A stretch of 64,000 nt of DNA from Bacteroidetes bacterium GWA2_40_15 (GCA_001768195.1 MENI01000097.1:73198-137197); one strand, 5' to 3'; shown: positions 23,148 to 39,200, counted from the stretch's first letter. Program-made: numbers and translations. The notes: generated from the letters alone by a model not told the origin.

Positions 23148-23186
23148 GAAAAAGAAAAAAAACGTTTCTAATAATTAAAAACAGAA
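23142..23186 (+). promoter_or_regulatory. Copy 1 of a duplicated promoter/operator-like motif (CCGTAGGA-N14-GTTTCTAAT...)
   Basis: CCGTAGGA at 23142-23149 overlaps the sigma-gene stop. A 14-nt A/T spacer precedes GTTTCTAAT at 23164-23172, and the anti-sigma ATG is at 23190. The same motif with identical spacing recurs at 24343. Confidence 0.45.
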
Positions 23187-23189
23187 AAG

Positions 23190-23621: not shown

Positions 23622-23630
23622 AGATTTAAA

Positions 23631-24191
23631 ATGAGAGAGGAAAAGAACCGGTCATTGCTTATATGGGTAATTGTTGCTCTGGCACTTCTTAATGTTTCAA
23701 CGTTGGGTACAATTTTATTTCAGCGTTATACTTATAACAGGAGCCTGAGAGCCGAAACGGTCAGGTCTGCAACAGCGAATCCCAATTATGGCACTTTCAG
23801 CGGCAATTATTTTGGTGAAAGTCTTAATCTTACTCCTGAACAACAGAGTGAATTCCGGAAATTCGATCCCCGCTTCAGAGAGAAGGTAAAGGAAATCAAT
23901 TTCAGCCTCTCTGAACTGAGAAGCGAAATGCTCGGGGAAATGACAAAATCAGAAGTTGACACCGAGAAGCTTGATGAGCTGTCCGAAATGATAGGCAAAC
24001 GGCATAGCGATCTTAAGAAATTAACGTACAAATATTATCTGGATCTCAGGAGTATTTGCGATCCTCAGCAACAACAACTGCTTGAAACCCTGTTTGCGGA
24101 AACTCTTATGTATGACCGTAATCCGGGGAGCCAGGGTGGCCGTAACAGGATGAGAAACAGGGGAGGAATGCACAGGGGATGGGATCGATGA
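23631..24191 (+). CDS. Membrane-anchored Spy/CpxP-like (LTxxQ motif, 'periplasmic heavy metal sensor' type) protein with an Arg/Gly-rich tail
   Basis: N-terminal TM/signal anchor, an LTxxQ motif (LNLTPEQQSEF), a second Q-rich helix (DPQQQQLLETLF), and the C-terminal tail GSQGGRNRMRNRGGMHRGWDR. Confidence 0.6.
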   Translation: MREEKNRSLLIWVIVALALLNVSTLGTILFQRYTYNRSLRAETVRSATANPNYGTFSGNYFGESLNLTPEQQSEFRKFDPRFREKVKEINFSLSELRSEMLGEMTKSEVDTEKLDELSEMIGKRHSDLKKLTYKYYLDLRSICDPQQQQLLETLFAETLMYDRNPGSQGGRNRMRNRGGMHRGWDR

Positions 24192-24915: not shown

Positions 24916-24950
24916 GAATTGTCCGGCCAGCTACCGGACAATTCTTTTAT
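24916..24950. terminator. Strong hairpin terminator shared by the convergent ECF module and the efflux operon
   Basis: GAATTGTCCGG (24916-24926), loop ccagcta, CCGGACAATTC (24934-24944), then TTTTAT. This is a perfect 11-bp stem. Confidence 0.75.
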
Positions 24951-24983: not shown

Positions 24984-25703
24984 TCACATAAATTTCTCCC
25001 TTTTCTGAAGATTAAGCAACGCAGCCAGCAGGAATATGACAGATCCGGTAATAAGTATTATCCGGTTCTTGAATGTTATTAATGCCCACGATGTTTCATT
25101 AATACCATAAGGAATATCAAAAGGATTGAGAAAAATATTCCACTGACTTCTTCCAAGGGATGAATCAAACAAAATCATAAATATTAGCCCTATTATTATC
25201 ATAATGACTGCAGTACCGTTGCCATTTCTGACAACAGTCGAAAGCATAAATGCAAGCATCCCCATGAAAAGAACCGGGACCATCACCTGAAGAGTAACTT
25301 TAAAAATCCGGAATTTCACAATCAGTACGGAGGAGAGAAATGTGAAAAGAAGCATGATGACAAATGCTACAACAAATATCAGAATGATCCTGACAAGCCA
25401 TACTTTATACCTGTAATCGGGAATTCCAAAGAGGATCTCAATCGTCCTGGCATCCATGTCATTCTGAATGCCGAATACAGACGGATAAAAAACCAGTAAT
25501 AATCCTGAGAAGAGGAAAACCCCGTAAAGATCGTCCATGTTCGAAACATCACTTTCAAAGACATAAATTACTGACAGGCCAAGATAGAATATTACAGATC
25601 CGGCAAGAAACCATATGAATTTGTTTGCAAATATTATCCGCAGGTTGTAAACTATCATTTTGTAAATGAGATTGATGAAATTTGTAATATTGTTCGTTTT
25701 CAT
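24984..25703 (-). CDS. ABC-2 type transporter permease (6 TM)
   Basis: 239 aa, six hydrophobic helices and no NBD. Its ATG overlaps the stop of the upstream RND-NBD fusion (ATGA at 25700-25703). Confidence 0.65.
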   Translation of the reverse strand: MKTNNITNFINLIYKMIVYNLRIIFANKFIWFLAGSVIFYLGLSVIYVFESDVSNMDDLYGVFLFSGLLLVFYPSVFGIQNDMDARTIEILFGIPDYRYKVWLVRIILIFVVAFVIMLLFTFLSSVLIVKFRIFKVTLQVMVPVLFMGMLAFMLSTVVRNGNGTAVIMIIIGLIFMILFDSSLGRSQWNIFLNPFDIPYGINETSWALITFKNRIILITGSVIFLLAALLNLQKREKFM

Positions 25704-28700
25704 CCTGCAATGTGATTTTTTATATTATTCTGGCTTTCATGACCTCTGAGCAGCCACAGGTAGGCGTCCTCAAGGCTGGGTGTTACCGGTCTGGCTCCTT
25801 TTCCGGGTGATGACCCGGATATGACCCTGACTCTTACATTATCTCCGTCCGACATATGGTTTACAACAAGATGACTATCAACAAATTCTGAGAATTCTGC
25901 GGCTGGGATTACATGTTGCCACACATGCCCTTCAGCTTTTCTGGTCATCTCAATAGGTTTTCCAAGATATCTTAGTTTGCCTTTATTCAGTACAGCAACC
26001 TGGTTACAGGAACTTGAGATGTCTTCAATTATGTGAGTTGAAAATATCACAACCCGTTCGCGACTCAGTTCCACAAGAAGATTTCTGAACCTTATCCTTT
26101 CACGCGGGTCAAGCCCTGCTGTAGGCTCATCCACAACAAGGATCCTCGGAAGGTGAAGCAGAATAAGTGCAATGCCCATTCTTTGTTTCATGCCTCCTGA
26201 ATAGGAGCCTATTTTTTCATGGCGTCTCTCTTCCATATGCACAGCCTGAAGAACATAAGTTACGCGTTCTTCCCTGGTTTTTACATCTGTTATGTTCTTC
26301 AGCATGGCCTGGTAATGAAGATATTCGTGCGCAGTCATATTCTCGTAACTCCCGAATTCCTGGGGCAGATATCCGATAAGTCCCTGGAGCTCTTCCCTCA
26401 TTTTCTGCGTATCGAGTCCGTTTATCCACACCTTACCGTAACTTTGTTCAAGAATTCCGCAGATTATTCTCATCAGAGTTGTTTTTCCGGCTCCGTTTGG
26501 TCCCAGAAGTCCAAACATGCCGTTGCCGATATTCATCGAGACGCAGCTTAATGCCTTAAATGGTTTTTTCTTCCTGCCGATCAGAGGTACTGCAGCAACA
26601 ATTTTGTAGATGGTTTTCCTGATATTCCTGAACCTTCCTTCAAGCCGGTAAATATCAATATTTTCCTTTGTGAGTTTCTGTCCGGTTTTATAAATGAAGA
26701 GTGACATAAACCATATGAATCCGAGGATGAGAACAACAGCAAGGTTATCCCATCGGAGCTGGAACCATGCCAGATCAGCCAGCGGGATCATCCAGAATAT
26801 AAGAATTTCAATTATACCGGAAATCCGTTTTATCCAGATCTTTTCTCCGTTCATGCTTTTATATGCCAATAGTTTTCTCAGGGAGGTCCATATCGCAGAA
26901 AGGAAAAACCAGGTGATTATGGTAAAGATGAATATCCAGAATCCTTTACTGAGAAAAAAATAGGTGAAGTATATCATAAAACCGAGTAGCGGTATCTGCC
27001 AAAGGAATTCTTTTAGATCACCGGATGATTTATATTCTTTCTCAAGTCCCAGCTTTTTTCTTATCCTTGCTCCGGCTTTCCATTCCCTTGTCCACCTGTT
27101 TTCCCTGTCATAGATTTTCACAAGGCTCTGAACATAAATATTTATGTTTTCATCAGCAGGGATGACAGTTTCCCTTGCTTTTTTAAGACTTTTCAATATG
27201 AACCAGGTTGCAGCCGGTATTAAGATCACAACAAGCAATGTCAAGATAATTTTCCAGATAAACTTATCTATATTGCTGTAGATAAGATAAATAGATATTG
27301 AAAGTATAATTATTTGCAGAACCTTGATTTTCCAGTTGAGCGAAAGGATCCATTTTAAAGCATTTTCCAGACCCGTATAAAACGTTGGGATGAAAACGAG
27401 TGTAAGAAGAGTGCTGAGTGTAAGGCCTCCTATTACAGTGATGGCGAATGAAGCACCGATTACTGAAACAAATTCTGCCTGTCCCATAGCAAGAGGGATA
27501 AGAGCAACGACCGTTGTCGCTGCAGTTATCAGTACCGGCCTGAGCCTTGCCATTCCTGCCATCATAAGCGCCCTGTGGGAACGGTAGCCTCGTTTGCGGA
27601 GGATATTGGTATAATCTATAAGAATTATGCCATTATTTACAACAACCCCCAGCAGAATAAGAAATCCGGTAAGAGTATTAGCATTGAGGAGTGAGTTTTG
27701 AGTCAGGATGAGCGCTATCAGCGATCCCAGAGCTGCAAGAGGGATACTGAACATAAGGACCACAGGAGTTACAACAGACTCAAAAACTGCAGCCAGAACC
27801 ATATATATCAGAAGAAAAGACACTCCGATCAGGTAATAGAAATCTTTGAGCTGATTTTCCTCATGAACTATTTCAACGGCAATTCCGGCAGGAATATTCA
27901 ACCCGGAGACTATTGATTCTATATCACTGCGGGCTCCCGCAAGCAGGTCCTTTGAATTCCTGATCTCATCGTTAAATGTGTAGGTGACTGTGACTCTTTT
28001 TTCCTGGTTTTCCCTGTGTATGTTACCCATGCCTGAGGAAAAAACAATGCTGGCAAGTTCTTCCATTTCCATAACCGAGCCATTGTTCCCGGTGACTTCC
28101 ATCCGCTTCAAGTCATCAATACTCTTTTCCACCGCCCTGTCAGAAAGATTTTCCTTATCCGGGTACTTAATCATAATGTCATAGCTTTCTGATCCCTGAC
28201 GGAACGTGGCTCCGGAGGAGTATTCCCGGCTGAATGTTGCCAGTGCGGCGGAAAGATTCATGAGTGTGAAGTTGTTCCTGCCCATGTAATCCATATCGAA
28301 GATCAGCCTTACCTCAGGCTTGTTATCCTGAACATTGACACTGGAGCTGCTTATTGTCGAAAGACCTTCCAGATAAGATTTAATATCGTCTGCCAGGTTC
28401 TTCATCTGGTTGAAATTCTGACCTTTAATTATAACACTCTCTTTTTCTGAACCGATACCAAGGAGATTCATAAAATCCGCTCCCGGATTATAATTTTCAC
28501 CACCACCACCTCCGGTGAAACCGCCTCCGGTTGAAAGCTCATTCATGCTGATTTCAGCTGAAGAGATATTTTTAACCTTTTGTTCTATATCATTTTTTAT
28601 TTCCGGCAGTGTTCTTTTGCTTGATTTATCCCACTCTTTCAGGAGGTTGATAGTAACTGTTGCCTGGTTTTCTTCTATACGGCAAACAATATCCTCCTTT

Positions 28701-30463
28701 TCAGGGATACTTGCCAGTCGCGATTCAATTTCAGCAACAACCGCATCACTCTTTTCAAGTGTTGATCCGCCAGGCATTGTCACTGAAAGCCTGAAGGTAG
28801 GTGCTTCAACCTCCTGTGTTGAGCTGAGGCTTAAAGTAAGGCTTATAAGAAGCGCTGTAAAAAACAGGACAAGGGTTCCTATTATTGTTGATGCAGGGTT
28901 TCTCATGCCGGCTTTCAGTATAAGATAATAGCCCTGTATCAGCCGGTCGTTTATTGTAAGTTTTTTAAATATCTCAGATTTTTGCCCTGATGATCTTTTC
29001 AGAAGATAAAATGTTGCCATCGGAATAAAGAACATGGCAATGGCAAGGGAAATGGTAAGGGTAGAAATAATTGAAACGCCAATATTCTTTCCTATAATCT
29101 TTACCATGAAATTATCAGAGAAGATGAAGGGGAAGAAAACAATCAGCGTTGTGACCGTTGCTGCAAAGACTGATCTCCAGACCTCTGTTGTTCCTTGTTT
29201 TACAGCAGTTTCAGGAGTATAATCCTTGCCTGCAAGACGATAAATATTTTCGAGTACCACCACTGAATTATCAACCAGCATCCCAATGGCAAGTGCCATT
29301 CCGATAAGGGTGAGACTGTTTATTGTGATACCGTAAGCATAGAAGAAGTTAAAGGCAGAATAAACCGAAACAGGAATGGCAATTGCAATAATGGTGACAA
29401 GCCTTATATTTCTAAGGAACAGCCACAATATCAATACTGCCATTAACCCTCCTGATATGGCAAGGTTGATGATCTGGGCAATATTTTTCTCCATTATCCC
29501 GGCAGTGTTATTCTGCACAACAATCATTACCCCTTCAGGGGCCAGTTTGCTGTTCAGTTTATCCACCTGTTTCAGCGCTTCATGTGAAAGATCAATCAGA
29601 TTGGCCTGGTTGTCATTCACAAGGGTTATTGTTACGGCATCAAGTCCGTTAACCCTGCTGAATGATGTTCGTTCCTTGGCTCCGAAAATTATTTCTGCTA
29701 CATCACCAAGAAGAACAGGCCCCTCATTTTTAACAATAATTTTACCTATATCTTTTACATCAGTGTACTCGGATATTATATTTACAAACAATTCTCTGTC
29801 TCCGTCAACAACTTTACCAGCAAATGTCTTATCGGCTCCGTTATTGTTAAGAAGGCTTCGTACCTGTCCTATTGAAATCCCTATTGCCTTGCATGCCTTC
29901 TCGTTAAGCCTTACTTCTATCGAGTTCTCCTTTCCCCCGTAAACCTGCACTCCGGCAATGCCGTCAATATTCTCAAACTCAGGTTTTATTTCACGGTCGG
30001 CAATGTTTCTTATGCGGTCGATACCGCCCTCGCCTCTTACCTGCAGCTCCATGAACTGGTTTGTAAGCTGCTTAAGATCGATTTTTATTACATTGATAAT
30101 GAAATCTTCCGGGATTGAATTTTTGACAATATCTATTTTCTCACGGAGCTTAAGATTGGCATACTTGAGATCGGCATTCTGATTATAGTAAATTACAACA
30201 GTACCGTATCTGGAGGAGATGTTTGATTCGATCTTTTCAATACCCTCAAGTGTTCCAATTGCCCCTTCAATTGGTATAATTGCCTGGGATTCAATATAGG
30301 AAGGATCCATTTCAAGAGGGGTGGCGACCTGCACTATCAGGGCAGGCAGTTCTGCATTTGGAAAAAGTTCGACCGACAGTTTCCTGTATGATACATAGCC
30401 AAGCATCGTCAGCCCTGCAAAGAGCATTATGATAAGAATCCTTCTTTTAATTAAAAAATCCAT
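25700..30463 (-). CDS. Fusion protein: AcrB/HAE-type RND efflux permease (aa 1-~1032), six extra TM helices (aa ~1033-1266) and an ABC transporter ATP-binding domain (aa ~1267-1587)
   Basis: Single 1587-codon ORF. RND hallmarks are the N-terminal LSVELFPNAELP, TM4 GMLVDNSVVVLEN and TM11 ARLRPVLITAATT. NBD hallmarks are Walker A GPNGAGKT (26480-26503), Q-loop YLPQE, signature YSGGMKQR, Walker B ILVVDEPTAGLD and H-loop STHII. Confidence 0.85.
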   Translation of the reverse strand: MDFLIKRRILIIMLFAGLTMLGYVSYRKLSVELFPNAELPALIVQVATPLEMDPSYIESQAIIPIEGAIGTLEGIEKIESNISSRYGTVVIYYNQNADLKYANLKLREKIDIVKNSIPEDFIINVIKIDLKQLTNQFMELQVRGEGGIDRIRNIADREIKPEFENIDGIAGVQVYGGKENSIEVRLNEKACKAIGISIGQVRSLLNNNGADKTFAGKVVDGDRELFVNIISEYTDVKDIGKIIVKNEGPVLLGDVAEIIFGAKERTSFSRVNGLDAVTITLVNDNQANLIDLSHEALKQVDKLNSKLAPEGVMIVVQNNTAGIMEKNIAQIINLAISGGLMAVLILWLFLRNIRLVTIIAIAIPVSVYSAFNFFYAYGITINSLTLIGMALAIGMLVDNSVVVLENIYRLAGKDYTPETAVKQGTTEVWRSVFAATVTTLIVFFPFIFSDNFMVKIIGKNIGVSIISTLTISLAIAMFFIPMATFYLLKRSSGQKSEIFKKLTINDRLIQGYYLILKAGMRNPASTIIGTLVLFFTALLISLTLSLSSTQEVEAPTFRLSVTMPGGSTLEKSDAVVAEIESRLASIPEKEDIVCRIEENQATVTINLLKEWDKSSKRTLPEIKNDIEQKVKNISSAEISMNELSTGGGFTGGGGGENYNPGADFMNLLGIGSEKESVIIKGQNFNQMKNLADDIKSYLEGLSTISSSSVNVQDNKPEVRLIFDMDYMGRNNFTLMNLSAALATFSREYSSGATFRQGSESYDIMIKYPDKENLSDRAVEKSIDDLKRMEVTGNNGSVMEMEELASIVFSSGMGNIHRENQEKRVTVTYTFNDEIRNSKDLLAGARSDIESIVSGLNIPAGIAVEIVHEENQLKDFYYLIGVSFLLIYMVLAAVFESVVTPVVLMFSIPLAALGSLIALILTQNSLLNANTLTGFLILLGVVVNNGIILIDYTNILRKRGYRSHRALMMAGMARLRPVLITAATTVVALIPLAMGQAEFVSVIGASFAITVIGGLTLSTLLTLVFIPTFYTGLENALKWILSLNWKIKVLQIIILSISIYLIYSNIDKFIWKIILTLLVVILIPAATWFILKSLKKARETVIPADENINIYVQSLVKIYDRENRWTREWKAGARIRKKLGLEKEYKSSGDLKEFLWQIPLLGFMIYFTYFFLSKGFWIFIFTIITWFFLSAIWTSLRKLLAYKSMNGEKIWIKRISGIIEILIFWMIPLADLAWFQLRWDNLAVVLILGFIWFMSLFIYKTGQKLTKENIDIYRLEGRFRNIRKTIYKIVAAVPLIGRKKKPFKALSCVSMNIGNGMFGLLGPNGAGKTTLMRIICGILEQSYGKVWINGLDTQKMREELQGLIGYLPQEFGSYENMTAHEYLHYQAMLKNITDVKTREERVTYVLQAVHMEERRHEKIGSYSGGMKQRMGIALILLHLPRILVVDEPTAGLDPRERIRFRNLLVELSRERVVIFSTHIIEDISSSCNQVAVLNKGKLRYLGKPIEMTRKAEGHVWQHVIPAAEFSEFVDSHLVVNHMSDGDNVRVRVISGSSPGKGARPVTPSLEDAYLWLLRGHESQNNIKNHIAG

Positions 30464-30473: not shown

Positions 30474-33400
30474 TTATGAAACCCTGCCGGCATCTTCTTT
30501 GAAATTTCCTGTGCCCGTGAACCATTTGCTGAAGCTATCGAATACCCAGTATACGCATGGGATCAAAATCAGTGTTAGTAAAGTGGAGGAGACCAGACCT
30601 CCTATGACAGCAAGGGCCATAGGCGATCTGAGTGAAGCACTTTCTCCTAACCCGATTGTAAGGGGTAGAAGAGCAAGTATTGTAGTAAGACTTGTCATCA
30701 GTATGGGTCTGATCCTCTGTGTGCCTGCAAGGATGATTGCATCCTTCTTTGGTATCCCGCTTTCTCTCAGGCGGTTGATCCTGTCGATCAGAAGGATTGA
30801 ATTATTGACCGCTATTCCTCCAAGCATTATTATTCCTATATATGCCATCATATTCATAGGTTTTCCCAGCAGGAAGAATATCAGAACAGATCCTGCCCCT
30901 GCAAGGGGTATTGTAAGCATTATCACAAATGGCTGTATAACAGACTCAAACTGTGCAGCCAGTACCATAAAGACGAGGATAAGGGAGAGCATCAGGGCGA
31001 ACGAAAGATCTGAAACTGACTCTTTTCTTTTAAGCTCCTCACCGGTAAATTCTATTTTATAGTCAACAGGAAGAGATATAGATTTAAGCGATGATTCTGC
31101 TTCACTTACTACCTTGTCAAGCGGCGATCCGCTTTTTACCATGGCATAGATATAACATGTTCTTGCCTGGTTCCTTCTTGTTATCTCCCTCGGACTTATT
31201 ACAGTTCTGATGTCTGCAATATCACTCAGTGGCACCTTTATTGCACCTGCATTGATCATCATATCACTCAGGCTCAGAATAGAGAGATCTCCAAGCCTGA
31301 TGGTTATGTCCTTCATCTCGCCCTCCTTTTCGAAACTACCTGCAGATGATCCTGATAAATAACCTTTTACCTGATTTATGATGCTTTCAACAGTTACACC
31401 ATAATAGCTCGTTTTAAACCTGTCAACGGATACTTCAACCTCCGGAGTTCCCTCATCAATGGAGGTAGTAATGTTATAAAGGCCGGTATTGGTTTCGAGA
31501 ATAACTCTACATTCATTAATAATTCTTTCAAGTTCGGAATAATCATCTCCGGAAATTTCCAGTACAAACGGGGCTTTACTGGTCCCCAGTGATGACTGCA
31601 GGGCCGTTTCTTCCCTGGTAAATCCTGCTTCCATATCAGGAATGGTTTTAAGCCATTTTTCAATAGAGGATATAGCCTCACCGGTGATTGAAGCAGACTC
31701 ATCACCCATAATTACTTTTATTGATGATGTATTTTCTCCTCTTGATTGTCCTGCCTGGCTGAATGAAGAGTTTTTATCACTGCCTGCCTGGCTGTATATC
31801 ATTCTGACCTTATCTCCCAGCATCTCTTTTATTATATTTTCAGTGCTGGCTGTTGTCCGTTCTGTGAGTTGAAGGCCGGTTCCTTCAGGAAGCTTAATAT
31901 TAACGGTAAATTCAGGTGATTCTGACCTTGGCATGAATTCGCTTCCGAGATGGGGGATCAGCAAAGCGGAACCGGTCATTATAATTACAGAAACTATAAT
32001 TACTGTTATTCTTTTCACAATAACTGCTTCAAGAAACCTGCCGTACCAGTTGAATTTGAATACAGGCGGAGTTTTAGTGTTTTTATTTTTATCGGGAAAT
32101 AGCACAGAAACGAGCATCGGGATCACAAGCATGGCGACCACCAGGGAGGAAAGAAGCGAAAATGCAACGGTCCAGGCCTGGTCCTTGAACATTTCACCCG
32201 ATGCTCCATGAAGGTAAACTATAGGAAGAAATACAACAATCGTTGTGATTGTCGATGAGGTTATTGCTGCTCCTACCTCTCCTGTACCCCGTGTAACTGA
32301 TTCAACAAAAGGCACACCTTCCTCCCGAAGCCTGGAAATGTTTTCCAGCACAACTATTGCATTGTCAACAAGCATGCCGGCTCCCAGGGCAAGTCCTCCG
32401 AGAGTCATTATATTTAATGTGAGATGGTTGAAGTACATCAGGTTGAAGGTGGCAATTATTGAGATAGGGATAGCTATACTGATAACCAGTGTTGCTCCTA
32501 TCCTTCTCAGAAATACATATAGAATGACAACAGCCAGAAGTATACCGATAATAAGTGTGTTCTTCACCTCACCTATGGCCTTGTTAATATAGTTCCCCTG
32601 GTCGTGGACTTTAACAAATTTGTATCCCGGCAGCACTTTTTCAAGATCTGTAATTGCTTTATCGAGGCTCTTCACAACATCTACAGTGATGAATTTGGGC
32701 TCTTTGTATATCGAAAGCCCTATGCAGCGTTCGCCATTAAGAGTAACTATGTTTTCAGGATCCTTATTGGCAAATCCGATAGTTGCAATATCTTTCAGGT
32801 ATACGGGCACCCTTGAAGAAAGGGCCGGTTGGGATGAACTTATCCCTGATAATGAACCGGTTGTTGAAGTCTCTTTGAATCCTACTATTATGTTTCCGAG
32901 GTCTTCAATATCTTCAAGGACACTTACGCCCTTTACAATATATTTGAGTCCCATGTCTACTATTGATCCCCCGGAAACGTTCCTGTTATAATTGCTGATC
33001 TGTGCAGCAATTCCTTCTGTTGTCAGACCAAATGATTCCAGCAGGTATCTGTTTGTTTCGATTACAACTTCACTTTCATCTGTTCCTGTTAGTTTCACAT
33101 CGGCAACACCCTCAATCCTTACAAGCTCATTCCTGATATAGTTTTCTGCTGTTTTCCTGAGATCATCCATATTGATTATGTTCTCATTTTTCAGAGCAAT
33201 GGTCATAACAGGAACGGCATTCGGGTCATACTGTGAAATAGTAAAATCCTCGATATCCGAATTCTGGCTGAATGAGTTAAGCTCTTTCTGAAGATCAAGG
33301 AATGCTTCATCCATATCCTTGTTCCAGTCGTACTCAACAGTTATGGTAGCAAGTCCTGCCTGTGATACAGAGGAGACCTCAATAACATCACTTTGCCTCA

Positions 33401-33617
33401 TTGCCAGTGACTCTATCTGATCTACATAGTTCTTCTCAATCTCTTCAGGAGGTCGCTCCCCTGCCTTGAGTTCGATGTAAATTTTCGGATTGTTAAGATC
33501 AGGGAACAGGTCGGTACCAAGTTTGCCAAAAGAGATATAACCAAGCAGTACAACCCCCAGTACCAGCATCAGTACCGTGACCGGATATTTTACAGCAAAT
33601 TGTGCAATACGGTTCAT
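30474..33617 (-). CDS. RND efflux transporter permease subunit (AcrB/HAE1-like), paralogue A
   Basis: 1047 aa, 12-TM RND architecture. Motifs: FAVKYPVTVLMLVLGVVLLGYISFGKLGTDLFPD, TM4 GMLVDNAIVVLEN, TM11 QRIRPILMTSL. Confidence 0.9.
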   Translation of the reverse strand: MNRIAQFAVKYPVTVLMLVLGVVLLGYISFGKLGTDLFPDLNNPKIYIELKAGERPPEEIEKNYVDQIESLAMRQSDVIEVSSVSQAGLATITVEYDWNKDMDEAFLDLQKELNSFSQNSDIEDFTISQYDPNAVPVMTIALKNENIINMDDLRKTAENYIRNELVRIEGVADVKLTGTDESEVVIETNRYLLESFGLTTEGIAAQISNYNRNVSGGSIVDMGLKYIVKGVSVLEDIEDLGNIIVGFKETSTTGSLSGISSSQPALSSRVPVYLKDIATIGFANKDPENIVTLNGERCIGLSIYKEPKFITVDVVKSLDKAITDLEKVLPGYKFVKVHDQGNYINKAIGEVKNTLIIGILLAVVILYVFLRRIGATLVISIAIPISIIATFNLMYFNHLTLNIMTLGGLALGAGMLVDNAIVVLENISRLREEGVPFVESVTRGTGEVGAAITSSTITTIVVFLPIVYLHGASGEMFKDQAWTVAFSLLSSLVVAMLVIPMLVSVLFPDKNKNTKTPPVFKFNWYGRFLEAVIVKRITVIIVSVIIMTGSALLIPHLGSEFMPRSESPEFTVNIKLPEGTGLQLTERTTASTENIIKEMLGDKVRMIYSQAGSDKNSSFSQAGQSRGENTSSIKVIMGDESASITGEAISSIEKWLKTIPDMEAGFTREETALQSSLGTSKAPFVLEISGDDYSELERIINECRVILETNTGLYNITTSIDEGTPEVEVSVDRFKTSYYGVTVESIINQVKGYLSGSSAGSFEKEGEMKDITIRLGDLSILSLSDMMINAGAIKVPLSDIADIRTVISPREITRRNQARTCYIYAMVKSGSPLDKVVSEAESSLKSISLPVDYKIEFTGEELKRKESVSDLSFALMLSLILVFMVLAAQFESVIQPFVIMLTIPLAGAGSVLIFFLLGKPMNMMAYIGIIMLGGIAVNNSILLIDRINRLRESGIPKKDAIILAGTQRIRPILMTSLTTILALLPLTIGLGESASLRSPMALAVIGGLVSSTLLTLILIPCVYWVFDSFSKWFTGTGNFKEDAGRVS

Positions 33618-33622: not shown

Positions 33623-34675
33623 TTACTTAATTATTTTTACCTTCGATTTGTTGCTGAGCGTTTCAAAGCCGCTTGTTACAATTCGTTCATTCCGGGTCAC
33701 TCCCCTTGTAACTTCTACTTCAGTGATATTCTCCAGACCGGTCTCAATAATTCTCTCTGAAGCAATCCCTCTGTCGACAACAAATACGGTTTTTCCTCTC
33801 TGGCGGGACAGGATAATGTTTTTCGGGATCACAATTACAGAATCCTTCCGGTTAACCAGAATATCCACCCGTACAAACATGCCAGGTCTGAGAAGCAGGC
33901 CGGGATTATTAACTTGTATATTGCCCCTGAATGTGCGGGTATCAGGATTGATGGCAGGGGAGAGCTGAGTTATGCTTCCATTGATAGTATCGTCGGGAAT
34001 TGTATAGTTTGTCAGCTGCACTTTCTGTCCAGGCCTGATGGCAGAAATATATTTCTCCGGTAACTGAACATCGAGATACATAATATTGTAATCCATTATT
34101 TTAACAATTGATGAACCGGTTTCTACCTGGCTGCCCTGAGTATAATAATTAAGGTCTACTATTACTCCGTCAATTGGTGATGTTATTCTTGTTTTCTCAA
34201 GCTGGAGCCTCGAATTTTCTGCTGTGGTTTTGGCATTGCTGTAGTTGATACTGGCAGTTTTGAGTTCCCTGAGTGTAACCCCGCCTTTTTCGTATAGAGA
34301 TTCCTGTTTTCTGAGTTCACTCTCCATGAGCTCCATATTGAGCTCATTGGTCTCGAGCTGAATTGAATTTACATACTCCTTGTCTTCCAGCCTTGCTATG
34401 AGAGACCCTGCTCTGACTTTATCGCCCAGCTGCCAGTTTCTGCCTGTTGCGGGATTTTTCTCAAGATAATATGAAGCGGTTATTTTAGATTTGAGTACAA
34501 TATCGCCCTTTGGGTAAACAGTACCGGTTGTGCTGACATATTCGCCTATATGTTTTAGTTTTATATCCTCAACAGATACCGGTATTTCAACATCGGCATT
34601 CAGATTCTGTTCATTGTTTCTGCAGGAGTAAAATACTGCTAAGAACAGGGTTAAGATGAAAAATCCTTTTTTCAT
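33623..34675 (-). CDS. RND efflux periplasmic adaptor (membrane fusion protein, HlyD family) lipoprotein
   Basis: 350 aa with a lipobox-like FLAVFYSC signal, a coiled-coil hairpin region and beta-barrel/MP domains typical of MFPs. It lies directly upstream of the RND genes. Confidence 0.85.
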   Translation of the reverse strand: MKKGFFILTLFLAVFYSCRNNEQNLNADVEIPVSVEDIKLKHIGEYVSTTGTVYPKGDIVLKSKITASYYLEKNPATGRNWQLGDKVRAGSLIARLEDKEYVNSIQLETNELNMELMESELRKQESLYEKGGVTLRELKTASINYSNAKTTAENSRLQLEKTRITSPIDGVIVDLNYYTQGSQVETGSSIVKIMDYNIMYLDVQLPEKYISAIRPGQKVQLTNYTIPDDTINGSITQLSPAINPDTRTFRGNIQVNNPGLLLRPGMFVRVDILVNRKDSVIVIPKNIILSRQRGKTVFVVDRGIASERIIETGLENITEVEVTRGVTRNERIVTSGFETLSNKSKVKIIK

Positions 34676-34686: not shown

Positions 34687-36183
34687 TTAATTTTTTCCTT
34701 TTAATGTCATTACAGGGGATACCGGCGCTTTCTTCTCAAAATCATATAGTGTCTGAATTTTAAGATTAAGGAGCTCAAGTTTATATGAAATAAGTGAATT
34801 GGTATATGATAACTGTTTCTCAGAGAGTTGGTTCTGGAAGATGTTAAGGTCCATGCCAGTAAGATCTCCGTTTTTATATTTTTCCAGATTAAGATCGTAT
34901 GTAAGCTGGGCATTCGTAACGGACTGACGGGCGATTTCAATCTGATTCTGAAGATTAAGAAGGTTCCTGTAAATTTTCCTGATACCGAGAATTATATTGT
35001 TCTGTTCCTCCTCAAATGAAATATTAGCCGATTCTATAGATGCCTGCGTTGCCTTTATCCTGGCTTTCCTTTCACCCCAGTCCCAGAGAGGTATTGACAG
35101 GGAAAGTGCTACAGATTCATTATCTGTGGGATTTTCATAAAGGTTTTCAAGATTTTCATTGTCTCCGAATATACCGAAAGTAAGTCCCAGATTTCCCTTA
35201 AACTCGTTGAGAGCCTTGGTCTGTATAAGATCGAATTGTGTAAACTCAATATCTATTTCGCGCTGACGCAGTTCCATCCTGTTGGCTAGTCCCTGGTCAA
35301 TGGCGAAGGATATATCAACTGCAACAGTATCTACTGCGATATTTGGCAAAACAATGATGTCATCAAAGAGGCTTATTCCAACAAGGAGTTTGAAATCGTC
35401 CTTTGCATTTTCAAGTGAAACAAGTGCATTCTCATAATCCGATTTCGTTGTTGCAAGGTTCAGTTCAGCCTGGAACATCTCCTCCCTGGCTGAGATACCG
35501 GCATCGACCTTATTCTTTGATACCTCATGGCTCCTCTGCATATTCTGATATGCCTGTGAGGCAATGTCGAGACTCTGCTGCTGCTGATATACATAATAGA
35601 AAGCCTGGGCCACCTGTCGTTCGAGGGCAAGAAGCTGAATGGCATAATTTAACTGAGAGGTTTCAAGGGCAAGCTCCAGTTCTTTAAGTGTAAGCTTTGT
35701 TCTGTTATAGGTGAACAATGGCTGTTCGAGGCGGACTGACAGGTTGTTGTTGAATCCTTTGGTTGTAGTGCCGGAGTACTCACTGTAGGAGTCTGTATAA
35801 CCAAACTTGTTAGTGAGAGAGATCCTTGCATCTGTTAGCTTTATAGGTTGCATAATGGAAAAACTGGCATTACTTTCAGTTGCCTGGTAGGTATTATAGT
35901 CAGATATAAGGTTGTTGAACTCACGGCTCTGAGTGTAGCTGAAAGGATTCAGAGTCAATGCGAACTGCGACTTCAGAGCGGCATTCTGAGCATTCAGGTT
36001 CTCCTGACTTCTGATAAGGTTCAGCCTGGTTTTTTTCATTGAAGGACTGTTTATCTCGGCAGTGTTTAATGCCTGTTCGAGTGTAAACCCCTGTTGCGAA
36101 AAAACTGATATGTTAAGTACAGATAGCAACACGATGTATATTAGTTGCAGTCTGATTATCATTACTAAGCGTTTCATATTCAT
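34687..36183 (-). CDS. TolC-family outer membrane efflux protein
   Basis: About 498 aa with the signal MKRLVMII...VFSQQ and two repeats of the TolC helix/strand pattern (LTLEQAL, NLNAQNAALKSQF...). I prefer the ATG at 36183/36177 over the ORF-track GTG at 36237, which lies in a repeat tract. Confidence 0.85.
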   Translation of the reverse strand: MNMKRLVMIIRLQLIYIVLLSVLNISVFSQQGFTLEQALNTAEINSPSMKKTRLNLIRSQENLNAQNAALKSQFALTLNPFSYTQSREFNNLISDYNTYQATESNASFSIMQPIKLTDARISLTNKFGYTDSYSEYSGTTTKGFNNNLSVRLEQPLFTYNRTKLTLKELELALETSQLNYAIQLLALERQVAQAFYYVYQQQQSLDIASQAYQNMQRSHEVSKNKVDAGISAREEMFQAELNLATTKSDYENALVSLENAKDDFKLLVGISLFDDIIVLPNIAVDTVAVDISFAIDQGLANRMELRQREIDIEFTQFDLIQTKALNEFKGNLGLTFGIFGDNENLENLYENPTDNESVALSLSIPLWDWGERKARIKATQASIESANISFEEEQNNIILGIRKIYRNLLNLQNQIEIARQSVTNAQLTYDLNLEKYKNGDLTGMDLNIFQNQLSEKQLSYTNSLISYKLELLNLKIQTLYDFEKKAPVSPVMTLKGKN

Positions 36184-36224
36184 TCGATTATCTTTTATTT
36201 TTGTCTTTATATCTCCTCGTCTTT

Positions 36225-36252
36225 CCTCACACCTCACCCCTCACTCCTCACT
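36225..36252 (-). repeat. Tandem heptamer tract, 4 x CCTCACN (GTGAGG on the coding strand)
   Basis: Perfect CCTCAC cores at 36225, 36232, 36239 and 36246 (7-nt period), with degenerate copies extending to about 36262. The tract spans the stop codon (36248-36250) of the 1149-aa gene and the spacer before the TolC-like gene. Confidence 0.7.
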
Positions 36253-39200
36253 CCACCTTCACCCACTTAATTGCATCACCGATTACAAGCCTTCCGGCTG
36301 ACTGGTTGGTCAGAACGACTCTGGCAGTATCAGGTGAAAAGTAATAACGTCCAATGTTATTCCATCCGGCATCTGCGTTTTCATAATCAAGAGTTATTTC
36401 ATCACTTCCCTCGTCATGAAAAACTTTATAATGGAAATCTTTAAAGCGGCTATCCTCCTGTCGCTCTCTATCGGGTCCGGGAGCTCCTCCCTGCCCGCCG
36501 CCTCTCTCATCCCTGATTGTCATCCTTTCAGCATTCTTTCCGACAAAACAATATACATCATAGTATCCCTGATCCTTAATCAAAGTGTTCCATTCGATTG
36601 CCTTATCTCCTGTACCTGCCCTGGTGTATACTGCTGACCTGATATATTTTCCAAAGTATGAGGTAAGTACTACAGGCTGCCAGTATTCAGGCACATTCCA
36701 CTGACTGATCTGCATATACGTATTACTTCTTCTGTTGGTTATGCCAAAAAGCCTTTTAAGGGGACTTGCCGTAATCTGGTTGCCTGATTTGAATCCTTCA
36801 TCCTCATTGTCAGTTATAATTTCCGAAGGGGCTGAAAATTGCAGAGGTTCTGCTGTTATTTCTACCTCTTCGCTTATCTTCCCGGTGTTTATCTTTGCTT
36901 TTAATATTTCATTTAAAGGCATATTTATTTCACCGGGGATGTTTTTGGCAAAGAGAGTATTTATCATCATGCCCCTGGGCTGAACATCCGTTAAGAGAGA
37001 TATTTTTTTTGTCTCCCCGGAATCGAGAAATACAATCCTCAATATATCGGAAGTTTCCATTCCCCGGCCCTGCATTGTTCTGCCTCCGGGTCCTCCTCCT
37101 GACGGCTGAAATGCTCCGGACATCTGCTGTCCCCTGCGTCCCGGCGCACCCTGTCCTTCGCTCCTGAAGGCTATATTGAATAACCCGGGTACCTTTTCAT
37201 GATTTGCTGCAATAAATGAAACCAGGTACCTTGATCTCTCTTCCAGGATTATCTCATTTGCCTTCAGATCCGAAAAGATAAATCCCGGTTGTTCCTTTCC
37301 ATTGAACCAGTCAGCGAGATATGGATAAAAGTCGAAATGGAACATATTCATAATGTCATCTCTGAATTGAAGCATATCAATTCTTTCAAAACGGTGATCA
37401 TCACAATATTTTGAGAACCAGGTATTGAATTCCTCTATACCTGCTTTTGATCTCAGGAGATTGAAGAGCCAGTCACCTTTAACTGCAATTACAACTCTTA
37501 TAGTATCTCCGGAGGGATTATCTGCAAGCAGATCCTTCAGGCTGTGCTCCTTCAATACCAGATTTGCTTTGTCATTATCAGTAAGATTGCCCATCATTGA
37601 CGAATACCTGTCAGGGGGCCCCTGTTGCACAAGCTGCTGGAGATGCGATTCAAATACTGCATTGATTACAGGATACTCTGCAGAATGGAAATTATTCTTA
37701 TAGAAATAGAAGCTTGGGCCCAGCAGGTATCTGGAAGGTTCATTGTACACTCCGTTTCTTGTAAATAAGGAATTTACGCCACTGATGAACGTATTCCGGA
37801 TAAAATCGTTGAAAAGCCTTACCTGAAGCTCTTTGTCGGTTATTACCTGGTTATTGCGGGCCATCCTTTTTTTCTGGCTCTCAAATCTTCTGCTGAAGCC
37901 TGAATTATCGAGAGTTGATAGTTTTTCGGGTAAAAGGATCATTCCAGGTTGAACTTCTGCTCTTGTCTGGGTGCTGTTTTTAGGGTATGAATAGAACTGA
38001 ACCGGAACTTCCAGAAGCGTTAAGGTTCTGAAAGGATACCTTGTCGAAAATGAAGTTTCAAGGTCTCTCATGATCCCTGAAACCAGGAAGGGTAACGTGT
38101 CCTTTAATTCTGACAGATCCTTTTTGTAGTAATCATTTCCCGGGAAATAGTGGGTGATGTAAACCACGGAATCAACCGTAAGAGTATCTGACCGGTAGTT
38201 ACCAATAGCAAGGGTAAGGCCTGTCAGCGGATTTTCCGGAAGAAATGAATACCAGTTGGTGTCAGATGTTTGTCTGCCCTGGGAAACAGGAGTCAGATTT
38301 TCTTTTGTTTTTACCCTCAGGGAGTATTTTGTGAAATCTATCTTGATTCGCGCAGGATTTGAAGGATAATAGTTAAGAGACGCTACGGGATACCAGTGGG
38401 TTTCAGGTGTTAGCAGAAGATATTTGTCATTGAGGAATGACTGCCTTTTATTTACATTAAGCATTGCAATCCTGTATCTGTTCTCTTTAATGTTGTCACT
38501 GTAATTGGGAGAGCAGAATGATTCATTGATGCTGCCTGCGTAAGTTATTGTCAGACTGTCAGATTCACCGGAGAGAAGTTTTGAGGAAGGTACTATCTCT
38601 ATTATATGATTGGTTCTGGAGTATTGCAGGCTTATGTTCCCTGCTGTTATTTTATTAACAGTAAGCGATGGGTTAAGCGAAAAAAGATAATAGTCGAGAG
38701 GCTCTCCGTTGTCATTTGTTATTTTAAGATTTGCCGAGGCTTCAATTGATTCTCCTCTATGAATCAACTCGATGGAAGCCTCCTTCACAACCGGGAATCT
38801 CCTGTCTTCAAAAATCCTGTTTGCCTCTGTAACAGCTTTTTTGGCATCTGATTTATCCCTGTGAATTGAATATGTATTTAACCCAAAAAAAACTGCAGCT
38901 GCCAGCGAAACTGCTAAAAATACAATTGCCAGGATAGTATGCAGGCTTGACTGCGGTAGTCTTTTGAACAATAATACTGTTCCCATTACGAGAGCCATTC
39001 CTGAGAAGAAGTAGAGAAGTCTTTGATTAATAATTACTTCAGGATTGTCAAAACCGATAATTCCAGACTTAAAAATTGGTAAGCCGAATGCCATATAATC
39101 AAATATGGAACCAACCCTGAACCACAACCAGAACATATCAAGCGCTGCTATTCCGAGCAGGATAAGGAATGTTACCGCCTGGTTTTTTATTAGTGACATA

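What the first reader, a model, noticed from the sequence alone, without database searches (positions are those of the whole stretch)
25700..30463. One polypeptide joins a complete RND permease, six extra TM helices and an ABC ATPase domain
The ORF is uninterrupted for 1587 codons. Residues 1-~1032 (nt 27368-30463) form a full-length 12-TM AcrB-type RND permease with both large periplasmic loops. Residues ~1033-1266 (nt 26666-27367) add six more hydrophobic helices. Residues ~1267-1587 (nt 25700-26665) form a complete ABC nucleotide-binding domain: Walker A GPNGAGKT at 26480-26503, Q-loop YLPQE, signature YSGGMKQR, Walker B ILVVDEPTAGLD, H-loop STHII, plus a C-terminal regulatory extension. 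RND TM12 ends in the cytoplasm, and an even number of added helices keeps the NBD cytoplasmic, so the topology is self-consistent. That argues against a chance read-through. RND pumps are PMF-driven secondary transporters, whereas NBDs power primary transporters. I know of no characterised protein that links the two covalently. The fusion implies ATP-driven or ATP-gated operation of an RND pump, or a physical ABC-RND supercomplex.
Basis: partly seen in the sequence, partly recalled or inferred. Interest (0 to 1): 0.92.

Follow-up and report, generated by a model that had tools for sequence, protein, structure and literature searches.

The report
RND efflux pump fused to ABC ATPase
A single 1587-residue protein really does join a complete proton-type (RND) efflux pump subunit to a working-looking ATP-type (ABC) motor domain; it is conserved with the same partner genes in hundreds of uncultured Bacteroidota species and has apparently never been studied, so it offers a natural test of how the two main classes of bacterial efflux machinery can be physically coupled.

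Summary
ORF 25700-30463 (-) encodes 1587 aa with a full-length ACR_tran match (2-1030, E 8e-160) and an ABC ATPase whose catalytic motifs are all intact. It is not an artefact: 62 independent species-level assemblies carry the same uninterrupted ORF, at least 589 GTDB species genomes matched the linker scan, and 15 divergent representatives (25-41% linker identity) keep the 1550-1587 aa architecture. The linker occurs essentially only fused to an RND.

The anatomy needs revision. Only two TM helices connect the RND to the NBD. The NBD starts at about residue 1104 (strand beta1 with the conserved aromatic Y1118) and is split by a 174-aa, four-TM insertion before beta2.

The gene sits in a conserved seven-gene operon: free paralogous ATPase, 1149-aa TM protein, OMP, MFP, RND1, RND2::NBD, and an overlapping ABC-2 permease. 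The NBD and permease resemble NosF and NosY.

The best reading is a covalently tethered ABC-2 exporter plus heterotrimeric tripartite RND pump working as a two-stage machine. Direct ATP drive of the RND is not excluded, because both RNDs lack the AcrB D408 and K940 relay residues. I found no literature on this fusion.

The parts
25700..30463 (-). RND2::NBD fusion gene (1587 aa), the finding itself
   Evidence: Uninterrupted ORF. ACR_tran plus ABC_tran. Same single ORF in 62 related loci and 15 divergent representatives.
27368..30463 (-). RND permease domain, residues 1-1032 (12 TM, two periplasmic loops)
   Evidence: ACR_tran 3-1018/1021. Best PDB sequence matches are MdtB, ZneA, MdtF and AcrB. 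TM4 D398-N399, TM10 N943, TM11 R973 and T980 are invariant in 78 family members.
27155..27367 (-). Two-TM connector (TM13-TM14), residues 1033-1103
   Evidence: Hydropathy. AF2 helices 15-35 and 39-68 of the model. Invariant W, P, F, S and L positions in alignment A1.
27095..27154 (-). Displaced first beta-strand of the NBD with the conserved aromatic (probable A-loop), residues 1104-1123 (INIYVQSLVKIY(1118)DR)
   Evidence: Invariant L-V-K-x-Y motif. Splicing out the insert extends the GldA-type profile match to position 2 and adds 5.6 bits, while a shuffled control does not. AF2 predicts a 12-residue strand here. It aligns with beta1 of the free paralog ATPa. Y/F is conserved in divergent members.
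26573..27094 (-). Four-TM insertion inside the NBD (between beta1 and beta2), residues 1124-1297
   Evidence: AF2 helices 127-141, 145-175, 180-209 and 212-237. No Pfam family. The whole linker is exactly 268 aa in all 62 close orthologs. No detectable relation to the ABC-2 permease (hhalign probability 0.2%).
25934..26572 (-). NBD catalytic core, residues 1298-1510
   Evidence: ABC_tran. The key catalytic residues are invariant in 78 members. Most conserved part of the protein: 93% identity among close orthologs and 69% among divergent ones. Foldseek best matches are TM_1403, NosF, LptB and ABCA NBDs.
25703..25933 (-). C-terminal domain of the NBD, residues 1511-1587
   Evidence: AF2 beta-rich domain. 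Foldseek alignments to TM_1403 (4yer) and NosF, which carry a C-terminal domain, cover about 284-302 columns. Shared with ATPa.
24984..25703 (-). PERM: 239-aa six-TM ABC-2 family permease; its start overlaps the fusion's stop (ATGA)
   Evidence: Overlap seen in the sequence. Directly downstream of the fusion in 77 of the 82 related loci first analysed and in the three divergent loci L083-L085; four of the other five end before it. 4 of 8 diverse orthologs hit ABC2_membrane_2 (best 2.7e-07) and 1 hits ABC2_membrane_3. Foldseek top hits are NosY, KpsM and Wzm, but from a low-confidence model.
30474..33617 (-). RND1: unfused RND paralog (1047 aa), 29% identical to the fusion's RND domain
   Evidence: ACR_tran E 1.9e-218. 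Pairwise identity. Always immediately upstream of the fusion.
33623..34675 (-). Periplasmic adaptor (MFP), 350 aa
   Evidence: TIGR01730 RND_mfp at 195 bits, above its cut-off of 94.9. Conserved position.
34687..36237 (-). TolC-like outer membrane factor, 516 aa
   Evidence: Pfam OEP, two stretches, E 1e-39. Conserved position.
36248..39697 (-). BIG: 1149-aa protein with about 7 N-terminal TM helices and a large C-terminal domain ending in Golvesin_C; probable ABC-2 permease fused to an M1-peptidase-like domain
   Evidence: Pfam Golvesin_C. TM profile. The L083 ortholog hits Peptidase_M1 and, weakly, ABC2_membrane_4. Found directly upstream of the OMP (in L083, which shows no OMP gene, of the MFP) in all 59 loci that reach that far. 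Resembles TC 3.A.1.145 as described in PMC3924187.
39713..40606 (-). ATPa: free ABC ATPase (297 aa), paralog of the fused NBD
   Evidence: ABC_tran E 3.4e-32. 43% identity to fusion residues 1304-1581. Canonical motifs and a contiguous beta1. Also present in L083 at 49% identity.
24916..24944 (.). 11-bp-stem hairpin between the operon's end and the convergent gene; probable terminator
   Evidence: Pattern scan only.

Best explanation
The protein is the hub of a conserved seven-gene envelope-spanning export machine in which an ABC-2 (type V) ATP-driven module is permanently tethered to a tripartite RND pump. Shown: the fusion is genuine and ancient; its NBD has every catalytic residue under strong purifying selection; the NBD is of the DrrA/GldA/NosF type; the next gene, which overlaps the fusion's stop codon, encodes an ABC-2 permease; and a second RND paralog, one MFP, one OMF, a paralogous free ATPase and a large TM protein are always co-encoded. 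Inferred: the fused NBD energises the small ABC-2 permease, either as a homodimer or together with the free ATPase and the 1149-aa permease-like protein. This module moves the substrate out of the cytoplasm or inner leaflet. The attached RND heterotrimer (RND1 plus the fusion, by analogy with MdtB2C) takes the substrate from the outer leaflet or periplasm and expels it through the MFP and OMF, using the proton gradient via the retained TM4 Asp, TM11 Arg and Thr. The two-TM connector and the four-TM insertion in the NBD form a membrane bundle that fixes the ATPase next to the RND transmembrane domain. That would guarantee 1:1 co-assembly and short-range hand-over between stage 1 (inner membrane, ATP) and stage 2 (outer membrane, PMF). 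Two RND paralogs, only one of them fused, may be how a three-fold RND is matched to a two-fold ABC dimer.
For: Real and recurrent. NBD competent: the key catalytic residues are invariant in 78 members, and the NBD core is the most conserved region. NBD family: NCBIfam best hits are GldA, DrrA and RbbA; Foldseek best hits are TM_1403, NosF, LptB and ABCA. Cognate permease: ATGA overlap, adjacency in 77 of the 82 related loci first analysed and in the three divergent loci L083-L085, ABC2_membrane hits in orthologs, NosY, KpsM and Wzm as top structural neighbours. The most conserved stretch of the permease is the TM2-TM3 loop, where ABC-2 permeases carry their NBD-coupling helix (the assignment of that loop is my inference). 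Operon: gaps of -4 to 15 nt across seven genes; ATPa and BIG conserved upstream. Two RND paralogs with one MFP parallels MdtABC, which is active as a B2C heterotrimer with divided labour (PMC4338810). Cooperation between inner-membrane pumps and tripartite RND pumps is an established concept (PMC4338810 abstract). The linker behaves as a structured domain: 268 aa without indels in 62 orthologs, and AF2 mean pLDDT 81.
Against: No experiment exists and the substrate is unknown. Nothing shows directly that the fused NBD contacts PERM and not the RND or the linker bundle. Both RND paralogs lack the AcrB D408 and K940 equivalents, so their PMF coupling is not assured. The three-fold versus two-fold stoichiometry is unsolved. 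The PERM structural model is low-confidence (pLDDT 55), and the window's own PERM only reaches E 0.11 against ABC2_membrane_2. A tether alone does not obviously need six conserved TM helices, four of them inserted inside the NBD.
Confidence: 0.5

Rival explanations
1. ATP-driven or ATP-gated RND pump. NBD dimerisation and hydrolysis are transmitted through the TM13-14 connector and the four-TM insert, which are wired directly to the NBD's beta1-beta2 hairpin and its conserved aromatic (probable A-loop). This drives or licenses the conformational cycle of the RND trimer, replacing or supplementing a weakened proton relay. PERM would be an accessory or scaffold.
For: Both RND paralogs invariantly carry N at the AcrB D408 and K940 positions, residues that are essential in AcrB by established knowledge. 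The NBD is more conserved than the RND. Three covalent connections link the NBD's ATP-site hairpin to TM helices, and the insert is conserved in length. The fusion was essentially never found unfused.
Against: The TM4 Asp and the TM11 Arg and Thr are invariant, which is compatible with a one-Asp relay as in some other RND families. The unfused RND1 shares the same relay variant, so it is not tied to the fusion. A bona fide ABC-2 permease is translationally coupled to the NBD, which gives the ATPase a conventional partner. There is no precedent for NBD-driven RND cycling.
Confidence: 0.2
2. One heterodimeric ABC machine docked on one RND heterotrimer. The fused NBD pairs with the free paralog ATPa, and PERM pairs with the 1149-aa BIG protein, giving an asymmetric ABC-2 transporter (as in YbhFSR or LptB2FG). 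A 2 RND1 : 1 fusion trimer (MdtB2C-like) then supplies exactly one NBD. This is a specific sub-version of the supercomplex model.
For: ATPa is 43% identical to the fused NBD over 279 aa, including the C-terminal domain. ATPa and BIG are conserved in the operon, including in the 21-25%-identity outlier L083. MdtBC works as B2C (PMC4338810).
Against: Both NBDs have fully canonical motifs, so there is none of the consensus/degenerate asymmetry typical of obligate heterodimers. Gene order pairs ATPa with BIG and the fusion with PERM. BIG's ABC-2 assignment is weak (E 0.01 in one ortholog).
Confidence: 0.15
3. Assembly, frameshift or read-through artefact, or a decaying pseudogene fusion with no joint function.
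For: Several related loci show the gene broken into pieces (L001, L010, L020, L031, L065). One tiny contig has a stop exactly at the junction (L086).
Against: 62 independent assemblies have one intact ORF. The broken cases are in error-rich assemblies, where neighbouring genes are often fragmented too, and the breaks fall inside the RND and not at the junction. 15 divergent full-length representatives keep the architecture. Catalytic motifs and linker length are under purifying selection.
Confidence: 0.01

Closest known systems
MdtABC-TolC / MuxABC-OpmB (tripartite RND pumps with two RND paralogs forming a heterotrimer)
   Same: The operon encodes one MFP and two adjacent, diverged RND permeases (29% identity) plus an OMF. 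MdtB is the best PDB sequence match of the fusion's RND domain. Division of labour between paralogs is documented for MdtB2C (PMC4338810).
   Different: Not orthologous: the NCBIfam MdtB and MdtC scores are 233 and 253 bits against cut-offs of 1584 and 1774. The TM4 D-D and TM10 K relay is replaced by D-N and N. One paralog carries a 555-residue C-terminal extension with six TM helices and an ABC ATPase. Mdt and Mux systems have no ABC components.
NosFY / DrrAB / Wzm-Wzt class: ABC-2 (type V) exporters with a separate NBD and a six-TM permease
   Same: The NBD's best profile hits are GldA, DrrA and RbbA, and its best structural hits include NosF and TM_1403. The downstream permease matches ABC2_membrane families and NosY, KpsM and Wzm structures. 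The gene order NBD then permease, with overlapping stop and start, is typical.
   Different: Here the NBD is not a free cytoplasmic protein. It is the C-terminus of an RND permease, and its first beta-strand is separated from the rest by four TM helices. All scores are below the equivalog cut-offs (for example GldA 172-182 bits against 402.6), so it is not a member of any named subfamily.
MacAB-TolC and YbhGFSR (ABC transporters that use an MFP and TolC)
   Same: ATP-powered inner-membrane components encoded with an MFP and working with an outer-membrane channel. YbhFSR is encoded with the MFP YbhG (PMC7190983); that its permeases are ABC-2 type is my own knowledge.
   Different: In those systems the ABC transporter itself sits under the MFP and no RND is present. 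Here a complete RND pair occupies that role and the ABC module is attached to it sideways in the membrane.
Functional cooperation between single-component inner-membrane pumps and AcrAB-TolC (two-stage efflux)
   Same: The same logic as the favoured model: one transporter delivers the substrate to the periplasm or outer leaflet, and an RND tripartite pump removes it across the outer membrane (PMC4338810).
   Different: The known cases are kinetic cooperation between separate, unlinked proteins. Here the two stages would be covalently joined and co-transcribed.
CFTR NBD1 'regulatory insertion' between beta1 and beta2 (recalled from memory, not checked here)
   Same: The same loop of the ABC fold tolerates an insertion.
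   Different: CFTR's insertion is about 30 disordered soluble residues. Here it is 174 residues forming four TM helices.
TC 3.A.1.145 (ABC-2 permease fused to an M1 aminopeptidase domain), relevant for the neighbouring 1149-aa protein only
   Same: About 1150-1200 aa with an N-terminal multi-TM region and a C-terminal Peptidase_M1-like domain (PMC3924187; L083 ortholog).
   Different: The HExxH zinc site is absent in the three orthologs checked. About 7 TM peaks were found here, against the 13 reported. A Golvesin_C domain lies at the C-terminus. Membership was not established.

Membership tests
RND superfamily permease (Pfam ACR_tran, HAE-1-like) | Full-length 12-TM architecture with two large periplasmic loops | tested here: met
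   ACR_tran profile 3-1018 of 1021, 534 bits against a cut-off of 28. Full-length alignments to ZneA and other solved RNDs.
RND superfamily permease (Pfam ACR_tran, HAE-1-like) | Canonical HAE-1 proton relay: TM4 D407 and D408, TM10 K940, TM11 R971 and T978 (AcrB numbering) | tested here: not met
   D407, R971 and T978 equivalents are invariant, but D408 is N and K940 is N in all 78 fusion proteins and in most RND1 copies.
RND superfamily permease (Pfam ACR_tran, HAE-1-like) | Encoded with a periplasmic adaptor and an outer membrane factor | tested here: met
   TIGR01730 MFP above its cut-off and an OEP-family OMF in the same operon. Conserved in related loci.
RND superfamily permease (Pfam ACR_tran, HAE-1-like) | Trimeric assembly and PMF-dependent transport | not testable with these tools
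   Needs biochemistry or structure determination.
MdtB/MdtC-type heterotrimeric RND | Two RND paralogs co-encoded with a single MFP | tested here: met
   RND1 (30474-33617) and the fusion are adjacent and 29% identical, with one MFP.
MdtB/MdtC-type heterotrimeric RND | Orthology to MdtB or MdtC (NCBIfam equivalog cut-offs) | tested here: not met
   233 and 253 bits for the fusion, 353 and 345 bits for RND1, against cut-offs of 1584 and 1774.
ABC ATPase (Pfam ABC_tran) | Walker A, Q-loop, ABC signature, Walker B with catalytic Glu, D-loop and H-loop | tested here: met
   All present at the stated coordinates. The key catalytic residues are invariant in 78 members.
ABC ATPase (Pfam ABC_tran) | Contiguous NBD fold from beta1 (A-loop) to the H-loop | tested here: not met
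   The beta1 strand with the conserved aromatic (1104-1123) is separated from beta2 (about 1300) by a 174-aa four-TM insertion. The fold appears complete but not contiguous.
ABC-2 / type V exporter (DrrAB, NosFY, Wzm-Wzt class) | NBD of the DrrA/GldA/NosF subgroup | tested here: met
   Top NCBIfam hits are GldA, DrrA, PQQ-ABC and RbbA. Top Foldseek hits are TM_1403 and NosF. Scores are below the equivalog cut-offs, so subgroup level only.
ABC-2 / type V exporter (DrrAB, NosFY, Wzm-Wzt class) | Adjacent six-TM ABC-2 family permease | tested here: met
   PERM orthologs hit ABC2_membrane_2 (4 of 8, best 2.7e-07) and ABC2_membrane_3. Foldseek top hits are NosY, KpsM and Wzm, from a low-confidence model. 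The window's own copy scores only E 0.11.
ABC-2 / type V exporter (DrrAB, NosFY, Wzm-Wzt class) | Physical NBD2-TMD2 complex and ATP-dependent export | not testable with these tools
   No multimer modelling was available, and no experiments exist.
GldA (gliding-motility ABC ATPase, TIGR03522) | Score above the equivalog cut-off (402.6 bits) | tested here: not met
   172 bits for the native protein and 182 bits with the insert spliced out. PERM has no GldF hit.
MacB-type tripartite ABC pump | NBD fused to a four-TM permease with a large periplasmic domain that contacts the MFP | tested here: not met
   The architecture is different: the NBD is C-terminal to an RND, and there is no FtsX/MacB-type domain among the Pfam hits.
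TC 3.A.1.145 (ABC-2 permease-M1 peptidase fusion), for the neighbouring BIG protein | N-terminal ABC-2 membrane domain plus a C-terminal Peptidase_M1 domain | tested here: inconclusive
   The L083 ortholog hits Peptidase_M1 at E 1.2e-07 and ABC2_membrane_4 at E 0.01. The window copy hits only Golvesin_C. No HExxH motif.

The most novel reading that the evidence does not exclude
ATP binding and hydrolysis by the fused, membrane-wired NBD directly drives or gates the conformational cycle of an RND trimer whose proton relay has been simplified (D408N, K940N). That would make it a primary-active, or dual-energised (ATP plus PMF), RND pump, with the four-TM insertion in the NBD acting as the force-transmitting element.
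Probability: 0.2. Interest if true: 0.95.

Novelty: new variant of a known kind. Interest (0 to 1): 0.78.

Why it matters
RND pumps (secondary, PMF-driven) and ABC pumps (primary, ATP-driven) are treated as separate energetic classes of efflux machinery. How inner-membrane pumps hand substrates to tripartite RND pumps is known only as loose kinetic cooperation.

A natural, ancient and widespread covalent RND-ABC fusion, with a fixed set of partner genes, gives a defined complex in which that coupling can be studied structurally and genetically. It also raises the three-fold versus two-fold symmetry problem in a concrete, solvable form. It shows that an ABC NBD can tolerate a four-TM insertion in its ATP-site hairpin. 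And it leaves open the more radical possibility of an ATP-powered RND.

On the practical side, current annotation pipelines mostly name these proteins simply 'efflux RND transporter permease subunit' or 'ABC-type ... ATPase subunit', so the family is invisible in resistome and transporter surveys of anaerobic Bacteroidota.

Tried and rejected
1. Artefact or read-through: rejected.

2. 'The fusion's RND has specifically lost its proton relay while the partner keeps it, as in MdtB2C': rejected. Both paralogs share D-N in TM4 and N in TM10. I could not test whether this relay variant occurs in RND pumps outside this system, because no other RND genes were present in the fetched DNA.

3. 'The six linker helices are a degenerate ABC-2 permease domain': no support. 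Pfam finds nothing, hhalign against PERM gives 0.2% probability, and Foldseek finds no match for the bundle.

4. Stand-alone 'linker+NBD' genes as the ancestral state: none found among the 103 representatives. The one candidate, P0143, sits 64 nt from a contig edge with a TAA at the junction, so it remains ambiguous.

5. Obligate NBD heterodimer inferred from degenerate motifs: not supported. Both NBDs are canonical.

6. PERM against PDB sequences by profile: no meaningful hit. The AF2 model of PERM reached only pLDDT 55, so its Foldseek hits count as weak corroboration only.

7. The ECF sigma, anti-sigma and CpxP-like genes next to the operon as its regulators: not conserved (3 of 85 loci).

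8. Literature searches for an RND-ABC fusion using five different term sets found nothing relevant. The library excludes most subscription journals, and TCDB and InterPro could not be queried.

9. The sigma-70 promoter scan is uninformative for Bacteroidota.

Full report
OBSERVATION. The minus-strand ORF 25700-30463 is uninterrupted for 1587 codons. Pfam places a full-length ACR_tran match on residues 2-1030 (profile 3-1018 of 1021, E 7.7e-160) and ABC_tran on 1314-1449 (E 1e-26). NCBIfam agrees, with RND_permease_2 over 2-1033 and GldA, DrrA and RbbA-type NBD models over about 1297-1517. Six hydrophobic helices separate the two domains.

NOT AN ARTEFACT, AND A DEEP FAMILY. A search with residues 1030-1587 returned more than 120 proteins at E below 1e-197, and many of them carry both PF00873 and PF00005. 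Their short lengths come from contig ends, or from frameshifts inside the RND part in draft assemblies, not at the junction. An exhaustive HMMER scan of 1.84 billion cluster representatives with the linker alone (residues 1033-1300) found only 103 matches. The 16 essentially full-length ones are 1550-1587 aa, with the linker starting at about residue 1024-1052, down to 25% identity. Six divergent ones that I checked all have ACR_tran plus ABC_tran.

The seed pattern for that scan was the beta1 motif and its E-values are local, so the total is approximate. The best 80 loci are unambiguous, with full 268-residue coverage. In 62 fetched loci the gene is a single ORF covering the whole query. The source labels are Bacteroidales, Bacteroidia, 'Rikenellaceae' and Prolixibacteraceae MAGs, plus one candidate division KSB1 MAG and one Spirochaetales-labelled MAG. 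NCBI names members 'efflux RND transporter permease subunit' or 'hypothetical protein', while JGI names some 'multidrug efflux pump subunit AcrB/ABC-type multidrug transport system ATPase subunit'.

REVISED ANATOMY: A SPLIT NBD. The linker alignment is almost gap-free, and the linker is exactly 268 aa in all 62 close orthologs. Between the second and third linker helices it contains the invariant motif I-x-I-x-[IV]-[QR]-x-L-V-K-[IV]-Y-x-R. This is the signature of the first beta-strand of an ABC NBD, ending in the aromatic residue I take to be the A-loop.

Four lines of evidence support that reading:
- All profile matches to the contiguous NBD start only at profile position 10-16.
- Splicing out residues 1124-1299 in silico extends the GldA-type match to profile position 2 and adds 5.6 bits, while a shuffled beta1 does neither.
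- AlphaFold2 (mean pLDDT 81.2) predicts residues 1109-1120 as a 12-residue beta-strand flanked by TM helices.
- The segment aligns with beta1 of the paralogous free ATPase in the same operon, and the aromatic is Y or F even in the most divergent members.

The layout is therefore RND (1-1032), a two-TM connector (1033-1103), NBD beta1 (1104-1123), a four-TM insertion (1124-1297), the NBD core (1298-1510) and a C-terminal domain (1511-1587). I could not inspect the model coordinates, so beta1-beta2 pairing is inferred from the DSSP strand assignment. The TM bundle has no Pfam family, no structural neighbour and no detectable relation to the ABC-2 permease.

THE NBD LOOKS CATALYTIC. The Walker A Lys, Q-loop Gln, SGG of the signature, Walker B Asp-Glu and H-loop His are invariant in all 78 full-length family members, with only a few conservative substitutions beside them. 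The NBD core is the most conserved part of the protein: 93% identity among close orthologs and 69% among divergent ones, against 77% and 42% for the RND domain. Structurally it is closest to TM_1403 (4yer) and NosF of NosDFY, then LptB and ABCA NBDs.

CONTEXT: A CONSERVED SEVEN-GENE OPERON. On the same strand, with gaps of -4 to 15 nt, lie these genes:
- ATPa (39713-40606), a free DrrA/GldA-type ATPase that is 43% identical to the fused NBD.
- BIG (36248-39697), 1149 aa, with about 7 N-terminal TM helices and a Golvesin_C end.
- A TolC-like OMF (34687-36237).
- An MFP (33623-34675).
- RND1 (30474-33617), 29% identical to the fusion's RND domain.
- The fusion itself.
- PERM (24984-25703), whose ATG overlaps the fusion's stop codon as ATGA.

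A hairpin follows PERM at 24916-24944. OMF-MFP-RND1-fusion-PERM is present in essentially every locus long enough to show it. The C-terminus of BIG lies directly upstream of the OMF, or of the MFP in L083 (which shows no OMF gene), in all 59 loci that reach that far. The most divergent members (L083-L085) keep MFP-RND1-fusion-PERM. L083 and L084 also show the BIG homolog upstream, and L083 the free ATPase.

PERM is an ABC-2 permease. Four of eight diverse orthologs hit ABC2_membrane_2 (best E 2.7e-07) and one hits ABC2_membrane_3. The top Foldseek neighbours of its model are NosY, KpsM, Wzm, ABCG and TarG, although that model is low-confidence (pLDDT 55). Its most conserved stretch is the TM2-TM3 loop. 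BIG resembles TC 3.A.1.145, an ABC-2 permease fused to an M1 peptidase (PMC3924187; L083 ortholog), but it lacks the HExxH motif.

THE RND DOMAINS. Mapping onto MdtB and AcrB shows TM4 D-N where AcrB has D407-D408, N at the K940 position, and retained R971 and T978. This holds in all 78 fusion proteins and, with minor variation, in RND1. My initial idea that only the fused paralog had lost its relay was therefore wrong. The variant characterises both pumps of this system. A single TM4 Asp with a TM11 Arg may still carry protons, as in some other RND families (background knowledge), but this is untested.

MECHANISM. What is shown: a genuine, ancient, selectively maintained fusion of a complete RND to a catalytically intact, membrane-wired ABC-2-type NBD, always co-encoded with an ABC-2 permease, a second RND, an MFP, an OMF, a paralogous ATPase and a large TM protein.

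What I infer (confidence about 0.5): the NBD powers PERM, as a homodimer or together with ATPa and BIG, to move the substrate out of the cytoplasm or inner leaflet. The attached RND heterotrimer then expels it through the MFP and OMF. The six-helix bundle fixes the two machines side by side. This is the covalent form of the known two-stage cooperation between inner-membrane pumps and tripartite RND pumps (PMC4338810). The conserved pair of RND paralogs, by analogy with MdtB2C, may reconcile the three-fold symmetry of the RND with the two-fold symmetry of the ABC dimer.

Rivals:
- Direct ATP drive or gating of the RND (about 0.2). It is favoured by the altered relay and by the NBD's ATP-site hairpin being wired to three TM helices. 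It is disfavoured by the presence of a conventional permease partner.
- A single heterodimeric ABC unit (fusion NBD with ATPa, PERM with BIG) on a 2:1 trimer (about 0.15, a sub-version of the main model).
- An artefact (about 0.01).

COMPARISON AND NOVELTY. The system works like an MdtABC-type pump joined to a NosFY/DrrAB-type ABC-2 exporter, but it is a member of none of the named subfamilies, since all equivalog cut-offs are missed by wide margins. Five literature searches and a 2021 comprehensive review of tripartite systems yielded no description of an RND-ABC fusion. The library is incomplete, and TCDB and InterPro could not be queried. I rate it a new variant of known kinds (a new architecture built from known modules) and uncharacterised. 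It would be categorically new if ATP turns out to drive the RND.

CAVEATS. There is no experimental data, the substrate is unknown, and there are no isolate genomes among the hits examined. Stoichiometry and interfaces are untested. Model coordinates could not be inspected, and the 589-species figure is approximate.

Noticed in passing
window 36248-40606 (-): A free ABC ATPase (297 aa, 43% identical to the fused NBD) and a 1149-aa protein (about 7 N-terminal TM helices, Golvesin_C at the C-terminus) sit directly upstream of the OMF gene with gaps of 10-15 nt. The large protein's C-terminus is found in that position in all 59 related loci that reach that far, so the conserved unit has seven genes, not five.
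   Followed up: yes
window 36248-39697 (-); L083:1209-4610; L002:1-1600: The large protein resembles TC 3.A.1.145 (ABC-2 permease fused to an M1 aminopeptidase), but none of the three orthologs checked has an HExxH zinc motif. The M1-like domain is probably non-catalytic. Its side of the membrane is unresolved.
   Followed up: partly
window 29267-29272 and 27632-27637 (fusion residues D398/N399 and N943/N944); RND1 residues D418/N419 and N938: Both RND paralogs carry Asn at the positions of AcrB D408 and K940, a neutral-for-charged pair swap, while keeping the D407, R971 and T978 equivalents. This is invariant in 78 fusion proteins. I could not test whether the relay variant exists in RND pumps outside this system.
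   Followed up: partly
L086:1-120 (GCA_028748505.1, contig JAMHJE010019392.1): In one divergent lineage a TAA stop lies exactly at the RND/linker junction, 14 codons before the called TTG start of a 526-aa 'linker+NBD' gene. Only 64 nt of upstream sequence exist, so this is either a naturally split version or a sequencing error.
   Followed up: partly
window 22554-24191 (+): An ECF sigma factor, a zf-HC2 anti-sigma factor and a Metal_resist/LTXXQ (CpxP/Spy-like) periplasmic protein are encoded convergently next to the operon. They are not conserved neighbours (the ECF factor is found in 3 of 85 loci, the others in none), so they are probably unrelated.
   Followed up: yes
L001, L010, L020, L031, L065 (mostly 'MFD' or ENA long-contig assemblies): In these assemblies the fusion, and often RND1, the MFP and the OMF too, are broken into many overlapping ORFs in different frames. 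This looks like indel-rich long-read consensus and not biology. It explains why every database hit to the fusion was shorter than 1000 aa.
   Followed up: partly
P0162 (RKY89563.1, candidate division KSB1 MAG); P0070 (Spirochaetales-labelled MAG): Full-length or near-full-length family members are attributed to non-Bacteroidota MAGs. This could be lateral transfer or binning error.
   Followed up: no
window 24916-24944: A perfect 11-bp-stem hairpin (GAATTGTCCGG...CCGGACAATTC) lies between the end of the operon and the convergent ORF ending near 24891. It is a likely bidirectional terminator.
   Followed up: no
window 40965-43271 (+): Divergently transcribed from the operon are an HD-domain protein and an LpxD-like UDP-3-O-acylglucosamine N-acyltransferase (lipid A biosynthesis). 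I did not check whether this link to the cell envelope is conserved.
   Followed up: no
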